Assembly: GCA_964016885.1 (NCBI GenBank)
Contig: OZ024741.1
Span: 213,900,001-213,964,000 of the forward strand
Length of the DNA stretch: 64,000 nt
DNA from: Eledone cirrhosa
Lineage: Eukaryota
Reading direction: 5' to 3'
A model generated the notes under the pieces. It ran no database searches, was not told the DNA's origin, and saw nothing but the letters and a program-made list of their open reading frames with translations. Position 1 is the first letter of the stretch. Each line of letters starts with the position of its first letter. Position numbers and translations under genes: made by a program. Positions 5,395 to 45,560 of this stretch are shown here, one piece after another.

Positions 5395-5444
<50 letters not shown>

Positions 5445-5451
<7 letters not shown>

Positions 5452-5735
5452 GTACATACATATATGTATACAGACATACAGTATTATGTATATATATATA
5501 CATACACGCACACATATATATATGTACGTATGGATTCACCGAACATTTATTATAATGCTAGGTGTATTTGTAAACAAACATCCCGTATTAAGCCGTAGTG
5601 TCCAGCAACCATCGTTGCTCGTTTGTTCAACACTGACAAAAGAACGCTGTACTAGTTTCAAGCTTATTAGCTATCGTCAGCAACGTATACATTCCTGCCA
5701 GATTGTTGAACGTATATACTTACCTTATGCATATT
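5445..5735 (-). mobile_element. Hammerhead-containing non-coding element (family A), starting at (TA)n, interrupted by a SINE
   Basis: Near-identical to 12604-12903; contains HHR 5644-5686. Confidence 0.75.
5644..5686 (-). ncRNA. Minimal type I hammerhead ribozyme
   Basis: Minus strand: ACGUUG-CUGACGA-UAGCU aaua AGCUU-GAAA-CUAG-UA-CAGCGU; stem I ACGUUG/CAGCGU, palindromic stem III. Confidence 0.8.
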
Positions 5736-5747
5736 AACCAATATAAT

Positions 5748-5923
5748 TGTTTCTACATTTGGCACAAGGCCAGCAATTATCCAGTACATTACTGGTACTT
5801 TATTTTATCGACCCCGTAAGGATGAAAGACAAAGTAGGCCTCGGCGGGATTTGAACTCAGAATGGAAAGGGCCGTAACTCTATGCGTCAAAGCATGACGT
5901 CCGACCCGCTACCGATACTGCCA
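5748..5923 (-). mobile_element. tRNA-derived SINE (Meta-like core GCCTTTCATCCTT..GGGGTCGATAAA..AGTACCAG)
   Basis: A/B box-like head; 12-bp TSD AACCAATATAAT at 5736-5747 and 5924-5935. Confidence 0.9.
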
Positions 5924-6039: not shown

Positions 6040-6620
6040 GGCGGTGGATTGGCAGTATTGGTAGAGCGTCGGGCAAAATTTGCCGTGGCATAGAGTTGCG
6101 GCCCTTAGCGTTCGGATTTGAAATCCCATCGAGGTTAGCTTTGCCTTTCATCCTTACGGGGTGAATACAATAACGTATCAGTAATAGACTGGGTTTGAAT
6201 TAAACAACTCCCCCCCCCCCCAACTCCGAATTGTTGGCCTTGTGCCTAAATCAGAAACAATTATTATTCCACAAAGGGTGGTCGATTGGCAGAATTGGTG
6301 GAGCGTCGGACAAATGTTTAGAACATAATGAGCAAGAACAAATACTGCTGAGTTCAAATACTGCAAAGGTTACCTTTGCCTTTCATCCTTACGGGGTTGA
6401 TGAAATAATGTACCAGTAATACACTAGGGTCGATTTCATCAAATTTACCCTCACCAAAAGTGTTTGGCCTTGTGCATATATCAGAAACCATTACTACTTT
6501 CATCCTTACGAGGTCGATAATATATAGTCCAGTAGCGTACTGGGGCTGATTTAATACACCCCCTCCAACACCCACCCACCCACACCAATTGTAGGCCTTG
6601 TGCCTCAAACAGAGACAATT
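6040..6620 (+). mobile_element. Tandem of 2 full + 1 partial Meta-like SINEs
   Basis: TGGCAG(T/A)ATTGGT heads, GTTCAAAT-like B box, TTTCATCCTTACG core, GGCCTTGTGC...AGAAAC tails. Confidence 0.85.
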
Positions 6621-6649
6621 ATGTTCACTGATTGTTAATGTCACGAGTG

Positions 6650-9600
6650 CAACGACCACGACCACTACCACTACAACCACTTACACGATAACTACCACAA
6701 CCACTACCTCCACCACCACTACATCAATTATCACTGCCTCCACTACCACTGCCTCCACTACCTCCACTACCTCCACTACCTCCACTACCTCCACTACCAC
6801 CACTACCTCCACTACCTCCACTACCTCCACTACCACCAATACCTCCACTACCACCAATACCTCCACTACCACCACTACCTCCACTACCACCACTACCTCC
6901 ACTACCACCACTACCTCCACTACCACCACTACCACCACTACCTCCACTACCACCACTACCACCACTACCTCCACTACCACCATTACCACCACTACCACCA
7001 CTACCTCCACTACCTCCACTACCACCAATACCTCCACTACCTCCACTACCTCCACTACCTCCAATACCTCCACTACCACCACTACCTCCACTACCTCCAC
7101 TACCACCACTACCTCCACTACCTCCACTAAATCCACTACCACCACTACCTCCACTACCTCCACTACCTCCACTACCTCCACTACCACCACTACCTCCACT
7201 ACCTCCACTACCTCCACTACCTCCACTACCACCACTACCTCCACTACCACCACTACCACCACTACCTCCACTACCTCCACTACCTCCACTACCTCCACTA
7301 CCACCACCACTGCCACTACCTCCACTACCACCACTACCTCCACTACCTCCACTACCTCTACTACCTCCAATACCTCCACTACCTCCACTACCTCCACTAC
7401 CACCACTACCTCCACTACCACCACTACCTCCACTACCTCCACTACCTCCACTACCTTCACTACCACCACTACCACCACTACCTCCACTACCTCCACTACC
7501 ACCACTACCTCCACTACCTCCACTACCTCCACTACCTCCACTACCACCACCACTGCCACTACCTCCATACCTCCACTACCTCCACTACCACCACTACCTC
7601 CACTACCACCACTACCACCACTACCTCCACTACCTCCACTACCTCCACTACCACCACCACTGCCACTACCTCCACTACCTCCACTACCTCCACTACCTCC
7701 ACTACCACCACTACCTCCACTACCTCCACTACCTCCACGACCACCACTACCTCCACTACCTCCACTACCACCACCACTGCCACTACCTCCACTACCACCA
7801 CTACCTCCTCTACCACCACTACCTCCACTACCTCCACTACTTCCACTACCACCACTACCTCCACTACTTCCACTACCACCACTACCACCACTACCTCCAC
7901 TACCTCCACTACCTCCACTACCACCAATACCTCCACTACCTCCACTACCTCCACTACCTCCACCACTGCCACTACCTCCACTACCTCCACTACCTCCACT
8001 ACCTCCACTACCTCCACTACCACCACTACTTCCACTACCACCACCACTGCCACTACCTCCACTACCTCCACTACCACCACTACCACCAATACCTCCACTA
8101 CCTCCACTACCACCACTACCTCCACTACCACCACTACCTCCACTACCTCCACTACCACCACCACTGCCACTACCTCCACTACCACCACCACTGCCACTAC
8201 CTCCACTACCTCCACTACCACCACTACCACCAATACCTCCACTACCTCCACTACCTCCACTACCTCCACTACCTCCACTACCTCCACTACCTCCACTACC
8301 ACCACTACCTCCACTACCACCACCACTGCCACTACCTCCACTACCACCACTACCTCCACTACCACCACTACCTCCACTACCTCCACTACCTCCACTACCA
8401 CCACTACCTCCACTACCTCCACTACCACCTCTACCACCACTACCTCCACTACCTCCACTACCTCCACTACCACCAATACCTCCACTACCTCCACTAAAAC
8501 CACCACTGCCACTACCTCCACTACCTCCACTACCTCCACTACCTCCACTACCTCCACTACCTCCACTACTGCCACTACCTCCACTACCTCCACTACCTCC
8601 ACTACCTCCACTACCTCCACTACCACCACTACCACCACTACCTCCACTACGTCCACTACCTCCACTACCACCAATACCTCCACTACCTCCACTACCTCCA
8701 CTACCACCACTACCTCCACTACCTCCACTACCTCCACTACCACCACTACCTCCACTACCTCCACTACCTCCACTACCACCACTACCTCCACTACCACCAA
8801 TACCTCCACTACCTCCACTACCTCCACTACCTCCACTACCACCACTACCACCACTACCTCCACTACCTCCACTACCTCCACTACCACCAATACCTCCACT
8901 ACCTCCACTACCACCACTACCTCCCCTACCTGCACTACCTCCACTACCACCACTACCTCCACTACCTCCACTACCTCCACTACCACCACTACCTCCACTA
9001 CCACCACTACCTCCACTACCACCAATACCTCCACTACCTCCACTACCACCACTACCTCCACTACCTCCACTACCACCACTACCACCACTACCTCCACTAC
9101 CTCCACTACCACCACCACTGCCACTACCTCCACTACCACCACTACCTCCACTACCTCCACTACCACCACTACCTCCACTACCTCCACTACCACCACTAAC
9201 TCCAATACCTCCACTACCACCACTACCTCCACTACCACCACTACCACCACTACCTCCACTACCACCACTACCACCACTACCTCCACTACCACCACTACCA
9301 CCAATACCTCCACTACCAGCACCACTGCCACTACCTCCACTACCTCCACTACCTGCACTACCACCACTACCTCCACTACCTCCACTACCTCCACTACCAC
9401 CACTACCTCCAATACCTCCACTACCACCACTACCTCCACTACCACCACTACCACCACTACCTCCACTACCACCACTACCTCCACTACCACCACCACTGCC
9501 ACTACCTCCACTACCACCACTACCTCCACTACCTCCACTACCACCACTACCTCCACTACCTCCACTACCACCACTAACTCCAATACCTCCACTACCACCA

Positions 9601-10280
9601 CTACCTCCACTACCACCACTACCACCACTACCTCCACTACCACCACTACCACCACTACCTCCACTACCACCACTACCACCACTACCTCCACTACCAGCAC
9701 CACTGCCACTACCTCCACTACCTCCACTACCTGCACTACCACCACTACCTCCACTACCTCCACTACCTCCACTACCACCACTACCTCCAATACCTCCACT
9801 ACCACCACTACCTCCACTACCACCACTACCACCACTACCTCCACTACCACCACTACCTCCACTACCACCACTACCACCACTACCTCCACTACCTCCACTA
9901 CCACCACCACTGCCACTACCTCCACTACCACCACTACCTCCACTACCACCACTACCACCACTACCTCCACTACCTCCACTACCACCACCACTGCCACTAC
10001 CTCCACTACCACCACTACCTCCACTACCACCACTACCACCACTACCACCACTACCTCCACTACCACCACTACCACCACTACCTCCACTACCTCCACTACC
10101 TCCACTACCACCACTACCTCCAATACCTCCACTACCACCACTACCTCCACTACCACCACCACTGCCACTACCTCCACTACCACCACTACCTCCACTACCA
10201 CCACTACCACCACTACCTCCACTACCTCCACTACCACCACCACTGCCACTACCTCCACTACCACCACTACCTCCACTACA
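6650..10280. repeat. 9-bp-based satellite (CCTCCACTA/CCACCACTA)n, ~3.6 kb
   Basis: Direct repetition; explains the 900-1300 aa low-complexity ORFs. Confidence 0.97.
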
Positions 10281-10664
10281 ATCAGTGCTACAGATCTGTG
10301 CTGCTGCCTTAGTTCCAGTGCAGAAAACACCTTCCGAAACTATCCCCCCCCCCTCTACCAACACCAACACCAACACACACACACACAAGGGAGAACTAAT
10401 ATATACACACATACCGATACACATAAACAGACAGAGAGAGAGACACACACACACACACTCACACACTCACACATACACACGCGCATAAACACGCATTGAC
10501 GCGGTCGTGTACATGCCTGATAAAACACATACCTATACACAAATGCATCCACACATACCATATACACACACGTACCTATACACACACACATACCATATAT
10601 ACACACACACACACACACGTACATATGCTGTCAAGCTATGTAATATTTGTGTCATGAGTCACAT

Positions 10665-12420: not shown

Positions 12421-12591
12421 TATATATATATATATGTTTATATAAATATATATATATATAGGGTTTATGCCCGAAACATTGTTCCACACCCCCATACCCC
12501 ACTCTCAAGAGCGTGAAACTAATAAACCTTTGTTCGTACTGCCTCTCTGTTTTGTTCCCGTTCCATTTTTCACTATATATATATATATATA

Positions 12592-13134
12592 TAAATATAA
12601 GTATGTATACGTACATACATATATGTATACAGACTATAGTAGTATGTATATATATATATATATACATACATGCACACATATATATATGTACGTATGGATT
12701 CACCGAACATTTATTATAATGCTCGGTGTGTTTGTAAACAAACATCCCAATTAAGCCGTAGTGTCTAGCAACCATCGTTGCTCATTTGTACAACACTAAC
12801 AAAGGAACACTGTACTAGTTTCAAGCTTATTAGCTATCGTCAGCAACGTATACCTTCCTGCCAGTTGATTGAACGTCTGAAAGTATATACTTTCCTTATG
12901 CATACAAACGGCTGAGCAGCCTAATTTGCATATTGAGTCAGTTAATCGGCCGGGATACCGAAAACGATGAATGGAAAAAATGAAACGAAATTTCATTTCT
13001 CACTCGTGCATGTATGTATATATATATACATACTACTGTACGTCTGTATACATATATGTATGTACGTATACATACTTATATTTAAGTAACAGCCGTACTA
13101 AGAGTTAGAAATGAAATTTCATTTCATTTTTTCC

Positions 13135-13136
<2 letters not shown>
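12592..13136. mobile_element. Family A element: long inverted segment with HHR (12807-12849, minus) + direct 3' segment
   Basis: Inverted repeats 12592-12674/13006-13084 and 12973-13000/13107-13134; TA-flanked. Confidence 0.8.
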
Positions 13137-13169
<33 letters not shown>

Positions 13170-13171
13170 GA

Positions 13172-13361
13172 AATTTAATATAGAAATGCCTTCTACGGGA
13201 GTAGACCTGCTTCATTCGTATGAAATCATCAGGAATGCCCTGGTGATTTCTCTCGAATGAAACAGTTCTAGTCCTGTAGAAGCCATTTCTATATTAAATC
13301 TCCTTGTTCTTACTCTACTAATGTATTGAATACCTTATTGACTGTGGTTACCCCCGATCCC
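13172..13361 (+). mobile_element. Family C fold-back element with degenerate HHR in both arms + tail
   Basis: Palindrome 13172-13299 centred near CAGG-aatgc-CCTG; tail ~13300-13361. Confidence 0.75.
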
Positions 13362-17253: not shown

Positions 17254-17290
<37 letters not shown>

Positions 17291-17291
<1 letters not shown>

Positions 17292-17478
17292 CGAAGGAAA
17301 TGTGGTAAGGAACCAGGTGGACCATAACGCACCAAAGTACTCAATACTTAGGGTAGTAGAGTGGGTTATAGGAACGGGTAGGACCCCGACGGCTGAGCTC
17401 AAGCCGTTTCGACGGCTAATTCAGTCCATAATTAGCCGTCGAAACGGCTTGAGCTCAGCCGTCGGGGTCCTACTCGTT

Positions 17479-17483
<5 letters not shown>
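17291..17483 (-). mobile_element. Family H: palindrome centred on HHR stem II + ~75-nt tail, in (TA)n
   Basis: Arms ~17367-17421/17430-17483; GAAACGGCT-tgagctc-AGCCGTC stem III and GUC site, no CUGANGA. Confidence 0.85.
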
Positions 17484-17517
<34 letters not shown>

Positions 17518-17520
<3 letters not shown>

Positions 17521-17925
17521 GAAGTTCTATTTAAATTGTTGTGAACAGCAAGAAAATATTTTTATAACTGATATAAAGCACTCAACAAATTATTGGAGTA
17601 AAAATACAATATATTAACAAATGTAAACTATATTTATAAAACCATATTTATTTCATTATACATATTTCAAGGACCCCAAGTCAAATTATGGTGCGCTTTC
17701 ATCAGATAAAATTATAATATAGATCAGTTTTATAAATAAATATTGACATACCCTTAAAGAATGCGACCATTTCTGTTGGAAGCTCCCGGATAGTCTATTT
17801 ATAAAACTGATCTATATTATATTTTATCTGATGAAAGCGCACCCTAATTTGACTTGGTGTCCTTGAAATATGTATAATGAAATAAATATTGTTTTATAAA
17901 TATAGTTTCCATTTGTTAATATATC

Positions 17926-17926
<1 letters not shown>
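17518..17926 (-). mobile_element. Family D fold-back element with two hammerheads (17649-17712 minus; 17820-17884 plus)
   Basis: Arms ~17611-17737/17796-17924; UAUUUUAU-CUGAUGA-AAGCGCACC..GGUGUCCUU-GAAA-UAUGUA-UA-AUGAAAUA. Confidence 0.85.
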
Positions 17927-18003
<77 letters not shown>

Positions 18004-18310: not shown

Positions 18311-18674
18311 GTGTTAAACAATATTCAATGAGTCTGTCAAAGAATTAGTTTTACAGTAGATTGGAAGCACTCTACAGTGAAAAAAAATTTGTTCGGAGTT
18401 ATTAATATTAAAATACAAATATTAATAAAATAGATGTTCTTTTGATCAATTACATTTTATTATACATATTTCGGATGTACAACAGTACGTCCTCATCAGA
18501 CAAAATATAAAGATACATGACATACCCTGAGATGTTAAATGGTATGGGTATGTCAGGGTATGTCATGTATCTTTATATTGTGTCTGATGAGGACGTACTG
18601 TTGTACATCTGAAATATGTATAATAAAATGTACTTGATCAAAAGAACATCTATTTTATTAATATTTATATTTTA

Positions 18675-18678
<4 letters not shown>
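18306..18678 (-). mobile_element. Family E fold-back element with two hammerheads (18452-18508 minus; 18575-18631 plus)
   Basis: Arms ~18405-18530/18553-18678; tail 18306-18404; TA-flanked. Confidence 0.88.
18452..18508 (-). ncRNA. Type I hammerhead ribozyme, canonical core
   Basis: AUAUUUUGU-CUGAUGA-GGACGUAC uguu GUACAUCC-GAAA-UAUGUA-UA-AUAAAAUGU. Confidence 0.88.
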
Positions 18679-23775: not shown

Positions 23776-23840
<65 letters not shown>

Positions 23841-23845
<5 letters not shown>

Positions 23846-24032
23846 AACGAGTAGGACTCCGACGGCTGAGCTCAAGCCGTTTCGACGGCTAATTCAGTCC
23901 AGAATTAGCCGTCGAAACGGCTTGAGCTCAGCCGTCGGGGTCCTACTTGTTCCTATTACCCACTCTACTAACCTAAGTATTGAGTACTTTGGTGCGTTAT
24001 GGTCCACCTGGTTCCTTACCACATTTCCTTCG

Positions 24033-24034
<2 letters not shown>
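23841..24034 (+). mobile_element. Family H palindrome + tail, in (TA)n
   Basis: Near-identical to reverse complement of 17291-17483 except loop orientation. Confidence 0.88.
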
Positions 24035-24095
<61 letters not shown>

Positions 24096-34220: not shown

Positions 34221-34297
34221 CAGAGATACTTATAGATATATAGAAAGATAAAGAAAGAGACTATGGATATATAGAAATATATATATATATATATATA

Positions 34298-34716
34298 ATA
34301 AAGAAGAAATTAAAAGATGGTTAAAAGAGCTCCATATATTTTATTATGCGCATTTCGAATACAAAATCATCCGGGACAAAAGTTGTGTTCTCATCATATA
34401 AAATAAGGTAACATGATATGAGGCATAATAGCACTTGTTTACAGGAAAGTATTAGAATATGTAGACCTAGCACTTTCCTGTAAACAAGTGCTATTATGCC
34501 TCATATCATGTTACCATATTTTATCTGATGAGAACACAATTTTTTTCCCAGGATGATTTTGTATTCGAAATGCGCATAATAAAATATATGGAACTCTTTT
34601 AACCATCTTTTAATTTCTTCTTTATCATATATACTCCAGTTCTACCAACTGTTGAGTGCTACTTATCTGATATATGCATATTTTTTATTGTTCTACAATA
34701 TTACTTACCCTCTACA
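34298..34716 (+). mobile_element. Family B fold-back with intact HHR (34516-34587) and mutated inverted copy
   Basis: Arms 34298-34450/34472-34625; AUAUUUUAU-CUGAUGA-GAACACAA..UUGUAUUC-GAAA-UGCGCA-UA-AUAAAAUAU; tail 34626-34716. Confidence 0.88.
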
Positions 34717-45310: not shown

Positions 45311-45560
45311 GTGAAGGCGCATGGCTTAATGGTTAGAGCATTGGGCTTGCAATCGAAAGGTTGAGAGTTCAATTCTCCGACTGGGTGATGTGTTATTTCC
45401 TTGAGCAAGACACTTTATTTCACGTTTCTCCAGTTTACTCAGCTGTAGAAATGGGATGATAGGACTGGGGTCCCTATCATTAAATTACCCAAGACACCTC
45501 CAACGAGATATACCTTGGAGGAGGCCAGCTAAACCTGAATCTGTGTGAGCTGTCACACAT
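45311..45560 (+). mobile_element. CORE-like SINE
   Basis: Near-identical to 22521-22770. Confidence 0.9.

What the first reader, a model, noticed from the sequence alone, without database searches (positions are those of the whole stretch)
12592..13136. Circularly permuted family A copy implies a ~430-nt tandem or circular RNA template
Seen: on the ribozyme-sense strand the long arm reads B-body(HHR)-A (13000 to 12592), while the short arm reads A-x-B (13006-13134). Block B (AGAAATGAAATTTC..TTTCATTTTTTCC) therefore both precedes the HHR and follows A. Inference: the source was a head-to-tail multimer or circle of ~430 nt with one HHR per unit, as expected for a retrozyme circRNA or tandem pLTR.
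Basis: partly seen in the sequence, partly recalled or inferred. Interest (0 to 1): 0.75.

Follow-up and report, generated by a model that had tools for sequence, protein, structure and literature searches.

The report
Penelope-tailed hammerhead retrozyme insertion
This is one of thousands of copies of a roughly 430-base tandem repeat with a hammerhead-ribozyme motif; its repeated block is the known "tail" of Penelope-type insertions, so it was likely copied from an RNA longer than one unit by a borrowed Penelope enzyme, and whether that RNA was a circle is untested.

Summary
The long arm (minus strand) reads B-body-HHR-body-A; the short arm (plus strand) reads A-x-B. B is not a local duplication: the unit B-body-HHR-body-A-x (420-444 nt) forms head-to-tail arrays of up to about 50 units, and 5,522 exact ribozyme cores occur genome-wide.

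Copies mostly end at two fixed 3' sites: the end of A, or about 56-60 nt further on, after x-B. In two-arm insertions one arm uses each site: of 55 partners of tail-ended arms, 49 end at A and none at the tail. This is the known Penelope-like (PLE) 'tail' anatomy.

This locus needs only a 468-nt template with the ribozyme site uncut. 'Multimer or circle' holds; 'circle' is not shown. For a circle: neighbouring units share rare variants, and tail arms often stop after one unit. Against a circle: A arms show no such stop, 3 of 32 arms mix subfamilies, and long arrays grew as DNA. No autonomous partner was found.

Verdict: a new family of animal non-LTR retrozyme, likely moved by PLE machinery. 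The scan noted the same anatomy earlier in other families and genomes.

The parts
12574..12591 (.). (TA)n target microsatellite, left flank
   Evidence: sequence; (TA)n follows the fixed 3' ends in most sampled copies
12592..13005 (-). Long arm: last 5 nt of x, then B, body, hammerhead, body, A; unit positions u425-429 then u1-407; 3' end at the A-end site
12592..12675 (-). Block A (TA/CA-rich hairpin region) ending at inferred RT start site 1 (u~404-407)
   Evidence: 3,479 exact A-end+(TA) matches genome-wide, control 0
12788..12874 (-). Type I hammerhead motif with extended helix I; core 12843-12837 and 12822-12819; U.U mismatch at the base of helix II; 2-bp helix III with palindromic ACUAGU; predicted cut between 12813 and 12812
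   Evidence: cleavage not tested
12973..13000 (-). Block B (hairpin) at the start of the unit
13006..13140 (+). Short inverted arm: A-x-B, unit u329-429 then u1-34; 3' end at the tail site
13085..13140 (+). PLE-type tail (x+B, about 56 nt) between the two fixed 3' ends; ends at inferred RT start site 2 (u~34)
   Evidence: 2,567 exact B+(TA)n ends and 2,659 exact B+body read-throughs; arm asymmetry
13136..13165 (.). (TA)n target microsatellite, right flank; a target-site duplication cannot be read
5433..5738 (-). Second, solo 5'-truncated copy of the same family (u92-407), ending at the A-end site in (TA)n

Best explanation
The locus is a two-arm, head-to-head insertion of a non-coding ~430-nt tandem repeat family with a type I hammerhead motif, likely made by a borrowed Penelope-like reverse transcriptase/endonuclease that would prime both cut DNA strands at two fixed sites about 56-60 nt apart on an RNA left continuous across the ribozyme site, more likely an uncut linear multimer than a circle. 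Shown: the tandem unit, the two fixed 3' ends, one end type per arm, scattered 5' ends, the (TA)n target, and no excess of 5' ends at the cut site. Inferred: (1) the PLE endonuclease cuts (TA)n; (2) one strand primes at u~34 and the other at u~404-407 on the same RNA, so A is copied twice and only one arm has the x-B tail; (3) both cDNAs truncate and join head to head. Linear versus circular template is about 55:40.
For: Tail-selected arms: 55 of 100 have an inverted partner; 49 partners end at A, 0 at the tail, 6 elsewhere. A-end-selected arms: 59 of 99 have a partner; 38 end at the tail, 2 at A, 19 elsewhere. Subfamily D: of 15 clean head-to-head pairs among 23 loci, 10 are A/tail, 2 A/A, 0 tail/tail, 3 other (read by eye). 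The two arms usually share a source: diagnostic-site mismatch is 58/498 across arms against 132,738/267,838 between insertions; shared rare alleles are 38/8,380 against 161/498,777. 0 of 63 tail arms and 0 of 73 A arms that reach the cut site end within about 5 nt of it. Literature: partial tandems, an inverted 5'-truncated copy, a tail at one end and (TA)n targets are PLE hallmarks (PMC8557442; PMC3846280). The tail lies between two internal RT start sites, both strands are cut and extended, and unprocessed RNA is the main template in vitro (PMC11167929). For a linear template: 3 of 32 multi-unit arms mix subfamilies, 3 rare variants are shared only in register, A arms show no one-turn stop (5 of 41, expected 5.8), and long arrays show 2- and 4-unit higher-order repeats.
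Against: No autonomous partner was found among 50 GIY-YIG loci or next to 324 family loci (13 had PLE protein hits, 2 of them inspected), so the enzyme is inferred from anatomy. The tail (about 56-60 nt) is longer than the 30-40 nt described for PLEs. Against 'linear': adjacent tandem units share rare variants about 21-fold more often than unrelated copies (14/7,295 against 59/664,324), 28 of 32 arms are uniform, and tail arms stop near one unit length (18 of 55, expected 7.1; window chosen after seeing the peak). In-register and out-of-register divergence did not differ per insertion (Wilcoxon p about 0.5, 21-22 insertions). With BLAST-defined ends, 2 of 128 passes ended at the cut site.
Confidence: 0.72

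Rival explanations
1. Same PLE enzyme, but the usual template is a ~430-nt circular RNA made by double hammerhead cleavage of a tandem transcript and religation; reverse transcription would roll round it.
For: Related animal repeats make abundant circRNAs (PMC7229834). The unit folds strongly as a circle: z -8.5, -6.6 and -8.2 for three units, 40 shuffles each. Helix I pair 155-191 is U.G, A-U or G.U in different subfamilies. 0 of 62 source-level variants hit the 12 core bases (expected 2.2). Tandem units share rare variants, and 4 variants are shared by all units of both arms. Tail arms peak at one turn; 24 of 198 arms cross the cut site twice.
Against: A arms show no one-turn peak; at the unit positions where tail arms stop they give 11 of 52 against 7.4 expected (p 0.11), which suits a position-specific stop. 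3 of 32 arms mix subfamilies and 3 variants are in-register only; a monomer circle cannot give these. The antisense strand folds nearly as well (z about -6). Covariation is weak (4 double-sided pairs, 37/500 shuffles). The ribozyme looks weak as a monomer, and 8 of 9 frog retrozyme dimers did not cleave in vitro (bioRxiv 10.64898/2026.07.22.740005). Gene conversion could also explain sharing between neighbours.
Confidence: 0.38
2. Tandems arise by template jumps between separate RNAs or by repeated in-register insertion into an older copy, then grow by unequal crossover; no long or circular RNA is needed beyond about 1.1 units.
For: Mixed-subfamily arms L025, L106, L174. Higher-order repeats in L121, L124, L126. 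PLE protein is proposed to nick its own pLTR (PMC11167929).
Against: 28 of 32 multi-unit arms are uniform, and tandem diagnostic mismatch is 95/756 against about 50% between insertions, so independent templates are the minority.
Confidence: 0.12
3. B is a local duplication or assembly artefact, and the inverted arm is a DNA fold-back unrelated to retrotransposition.
For: B and A are hairpins in microsatellite-rich DNA.
Against: A-x-B-body read-through and both fixed ends recur thousands of times; the two arms differ systematically in their 3' end.
Confidence: 0.02

Closest known systems
Metazoan non-LTR retrozymes (coral, mussel, axolotl; Cervera & de la Pena 2020, PMC7229834, parts 2-3 of 6 and passages read; Li et al. 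2026, bioRxiv 10.64898/2026.07.22.740005, parts 1-3 of 5 read)
   Same: Non-coding tandem unit of a few hundred nt with one type I hammerhead per unit; thousands of dispersed monomers and multimers; strongly self-paired predicted RNA; weak helix III with a palindromic loop and a U.U at the base of helix II, as described for the two axolotl ribozymes; coexists with PLEs.
   Different: Unit of 420-444 nt, slightly above the 170-400 nt of the experimentally studied ones (within the 51-972 bp range of Li et al.); expression, cleavage and circles untested here. The parts read propose PLE mobilisation from co-occurrence and pLTR similarity and do not describe two fixed 3' ends with one per arm.
Insertion units of endonuclease-positive Penelope-like elements (Craig et al. 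2021, PMC8557442, passages; Arkhipova et al. 2013, PMC3846280, passages; Frangieh et al. 2024, PMC11167929, parts 1-2 of 4)
   Same: 5' truncation, partial tandems, head-to-head inverted arm, tail at one end only, (TA)n targets, hammerhead in the repeat, two internal RT start sites.
   Different: No RT/GIY-YIG ORF seen in any sampled copy; tail about 56-60 nt rather than 30-40; the unit multiplies as its own tandem; no matching autonomous pLTR found.
Hammerheads of Neptune-type PLEs in this same genome and PLE hammerheads in general (Cervera & de la Pena 2014, PMC4209133, passages)
   Same: T-flanked 4-bp helix II with a 4-nt loop and a palindromic hexamer in helix III, predicted to act as a dimer; 10 of 30 GIY-YIG loci carry a downstream 8-nt motif that also lies in B.
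   Different: No extended sequence homology to the unit; different 3' ends; the unit's helix I is much longer.

Membership tests
Metazoan non-LTR retrozyme | Short non-coding unit in head-to-tail tandem repeats | tested here: met
   Arrays in at least 9 of 29 distinct top loci; about 50 units at one locus; units of 420-444 nt
Metazoan non-LTR retrozyme | One type I hammerhead per unit | tested here: met
   Core and helices I-III by sequence and constrained fold; one per unit in arrays; no Rfam hit
Metazoan non-LTR retrozyme | No LTR, no coding ORF | tested here: met
   Arm maps; no PLE ORF seen continuous with an arm in 324 loci (2 of 13 hit loci inspected)
Metazoan non-LTR retrozyme | Highly self-paired RNA under structural selection | tested here: inconclusive
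   z -6.6 to -8.5, but antisense about -6; 4 double-sided pairs, 37/500 shuffles
Metazoan non-LTR retrozyme | Self-cleavage and circRNA accumulation | not testable with these tools
   Needs RNA or bench data; indirect sequence tests were mixed
PLE-type insertion (works like) | Tail at one end only of a head-to-head inverted unit | tested here: met
   49 A-end against 0 tail-end among 55 partners
PLE-type insertion (works like) | Variable 5' truncation, partial tandems, (TA)n target | tested here: met
PLE-type insertion (works like) | Target-site duplication | tested here: inconclusive
   Both flanks are (TA)n
Autonomous PLE | RT plus GIY-YIG ORF within the element | tested here: not met
pLTR derivative of a named host PLE family | Sequence homology to an autonomous pLTR | tested here: inconclusive
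   None among 50 of the 150 listed GIY-YIG matches (10,597 candidates)

The most novel reading that the evidence does not exclude
A dimeric Penelope-type enzyme loads on one ~430-nt hammerhead-made circular RNA, primes both target strands at two sites 56-60 nt apart and rolls round it; the tail arm stalls when it returns to its own primer after one turn. The insertions would then be a genomic record of rolling-circle target-primed reverse transcription on a circRNA.
Probability: 0.3. Interest if true: 0.65.

Novelty: new member of a known kind. Interest (0 to 1): 0.36.

Why it matters
How animal retrozymes move is still argued from co-occurrence and pLTR similarity. This family gives anatomical evidence for PLE machinery: two fixed start sites, one used per arm (49 to 0). 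It also gives a compact 430-nt substrate on which circle versus linear template, and the role of the ribozyme, can be tested with a purified PLE protein. The locus itself is an ordinary dead copy, and the tail and inverted arm are known PLE features.

Tried and rejected
RNA evidence: no RNA holder listed; this is no evidence either way. Contigs of coded runs were laid twice: they show the helix I variants, but the arm junction was skipped as repeat, so it was not checked independently.

Rfam: no hammerhead match at gathering score or at E up to 10; only sub-threshold TA-rich miRNA-like hits.

Run-off at the ribozyme cut: no excess of 5' ends, so a cleaved linear monomer is rejected as the usual template.

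(AB)n and (ABCD)n arrays as rolling-circle products: private variants repeat in register, which DNA-level expansion explains more simply.

Autonomous partner: not found. A B-like hairpin near a PLE in L227 belongs to a separate element beyond a (TA)n tract.

One search had failed de-duplication and a faulty subfamily call; it was replaced. In one search two of 75 pairs were mis-specified. The ribozyme-core conservation was biased by selection on that core and is not used.

Rows dropped: loci touching a window edge and long arrays (>7-8 segments) in the divergence tests; one duplicate tail locus (kept); one of the first 100 A-end matches was not fetched as a near-duplicate. Pattern-selected samples come from the first 127 Mb of contig C1 and favour less-mutated ends; the tail-selected and A-selected sets overlap and are not summed. 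My notebook says 11 A/tail pairs for subfamily D; the recount is 10.

Full report
Observation. The window lies in a 3.0-Gb, microsatellite-rich animal genome. At 12592-13140 two arms meet head to head. The minus-strand arm reads B-body-hammerhead-body-A and the plus-strand arm A-x-B. A matches at 90.6% over 85 columns and B at 27 of 28 bases. The long arm also carries 5 nt of x before B and joins the short arm without overlap. The hammerhead has a complete type I core, a long helix I, a helix II with a U.U mismatch at its base and a 2-bp helix III with a palindromic hexamer; the predicted cut is after 12813. Rfam does not recognise it. A second, solo copy lies at 5433-5738.

The family. A 35-nt ribozyme pattern has 5,522 exact matches, control 0. 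The repeating unit is B-body-HHR-body-A-x. At least 9 of the 29 distinct best-matching loci hold head-to-tail units with two or more hammerheads, and one array has about 50 units. Three subfamilies of about 429, 420 and 442-444 nt were seen. B followed by body has 2,659 exact matches, B followed by (TA)n 2,567, and the end of A followed by (TA)n 3,479; all controls 0.

Two fixed ends. In 94 arms from 52 loci, 40 ended at the end of A, 36 at the end of B and 18 elsewhere, while 5' ends were scattered. Of 100 arms picked by their tail end, 55 had an inverted partner: 49 ended at A, none at the tail, 6 elsewhere. Of 99 arms picked by their A end, 59 had a partner: 38 tail, 2 A, 19 elsewhere. The diverged D subfamily gave 10 A/tail, 2 A/A, 0 tail/tail and 3 other among 15 clean pairs. 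The window's copy is a standard A/tail pair.

What that anatomy is. Craig et al. (PMC8557442, passages) describe PLE insertions as partial tandems with an adjacent inverted 5'-truncated copy, a 30-40-bp tail often at one end only, and (TA)n targets. Arkhipova et al. (PMC3846280, passages) describe the tail on one of the inverted pLTRs. Frangieh et al. (PMC11167929, parts 1-2 of 4) show that a purified PLE protein cuts and extends both strands, starts at two internal RNA sites that bound the tail, does not need hammerhead cleavage, and mostly uses unprocessed RNA. Here x-B is that tail, somewhat longer. The genome holds many PLEs (10,597 GIY-YIG candidates, 150 scored), most of those inspected Neptune-type, and their hammerheads share the T-flanked helix II and palindromic helix III. 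No autonomous element with this unit as its pLTR was found.

One RNA for both arms. Subfamily-diagnostic sites mismatch at 58/498 across arms and 95/756 between tandem units, against 132,738/267,838 between insertions. Rare alleles are shared across arms at 38/8,380 against 161/498,777. I infer that both strands are primed on one RNA and that the stretch upstream of site 1 is copied twice. For this locus the RNA need only span 5 + 429 + 34 = 468 nt. It had to be continuous at the ribozyme site: 0 of 63 tail arms and 0 of 73 A arms reaching that site end there (2 of 128 with BLAST ends). A cleaved linear monomer is therefore excluded as the usual template; an uncut multimer and a ligated circle both remain.

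Circle or linear multimer. For a circle: the 5' partial unit and the next unit share rare non-CpG variants at 14/7,295 sites against 59/664,324 between insertions, 28 of 32 multi-unit arms are of one subfamily, and 4 variants occur in every unit of both arms. Tail arms stop near one unit length, 18 of 55 against 7.1 expected (window chosen). The unit folds with z -6.6 to -8.5 as a circle, a helix I pair changes on both sides between subfamilies, and none of 62 source-level variants hits the core (2.2 expected). Against: A arms show no one-turn peak (5 of 41, 5.8 expected) and a slight excess at the same unit positions (11 of 52, 7.4 expected), which suits a position-specific stop. Three arms mix subfamilies and 3 variants are shared in register only. 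Long arrays carry 2- and 4-unit higher-order repeats, pointing to DNA-level growth. The antisense strand folds almost as well, covariation is weak (37/500 shuffles), per-insertion register tests were flat (p about 0.5), and gene conversion was not excluded. I put linear at about 0.55 and circle at about 0.4. This locus, with one hammerhead, could not itself release a unit-length circle.

Comparison. By structure the family is an animal non-LTR retrozyme (PMC7229834, parts 2-3 and passages), whose authors name PLEs as a strong candidate for mobilisation. Li et al. (bioRxiv 10.64898/2026.07.22.740005, parts 1-3) argue for pLTR origin from distribution and phylogeny and state that the mobilisation mechanism remains open. 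PLE hammerheads with palindromic helix III are expected to work as dimers (PMC4209133, passages). Five searches (listings only, apart from the papers named) showed no report of this family or of arm-by-arm end counts in a retrozyme; the library is incomplete and no supplements were read. Earlier notes of this scan describe the same anatomy in other families; a look-up by this sequence found nothing. They were read after my reading was formed and are not used as support.

Verdict. Real feature; new member of a known kind. Interest 0.36.

Noticed in passing
window 13165-13305, 17254-17517, 17604-17929, 18405-18678, 23808-24070, 34290-34633: Several other short fold-back elements beside (TA)n, most with hammerhead-like motifs and some with an extension on one arm only; probably further PLE-derived families with the same two-arm anatomy.
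   Followed up: partly
G000:C1 about 51.772-51.794 Mb (L122-L124); L121; L126: Long arrays of the unit with 4-unit and 2-unit higher-order repeats; L121 still has a tail end and an inverted arm. A further long array appears near C1 97.0 Mb in the listing.
   Followed up: partly
unit u~41-55 (window about 12946-12960): 5' ends of both arm types appear to cluster near a GC-rich palindrome just downstream of B; could be an RT stop, a joining hot spot, a transcription start or partly an alignment effect.
   Followed up: partly
L031-L058 (GIY-YIG loci): A Neptune-type family has a hammerhead variant beginning UUGA rather than CUGA, about 420-670 nt after the GIY-YIG match; activity unknown.
   Followed up: no
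L227 6080-6365: A separate small element with a B-like hairpin next to (TA)n and about 70% similarity to the unit's body-A region; possibly a distant sister family.
   Followed up: partly
window 45315-45383 and 5741-5851: A tRNA-like match at the Rfam threshold and a repeat of about 110 nt with many copies in the window; probably SINEs.
   Followed up: no
window about 6550-10500: A long tandem array with a 9-nt period.
   Followed up: no
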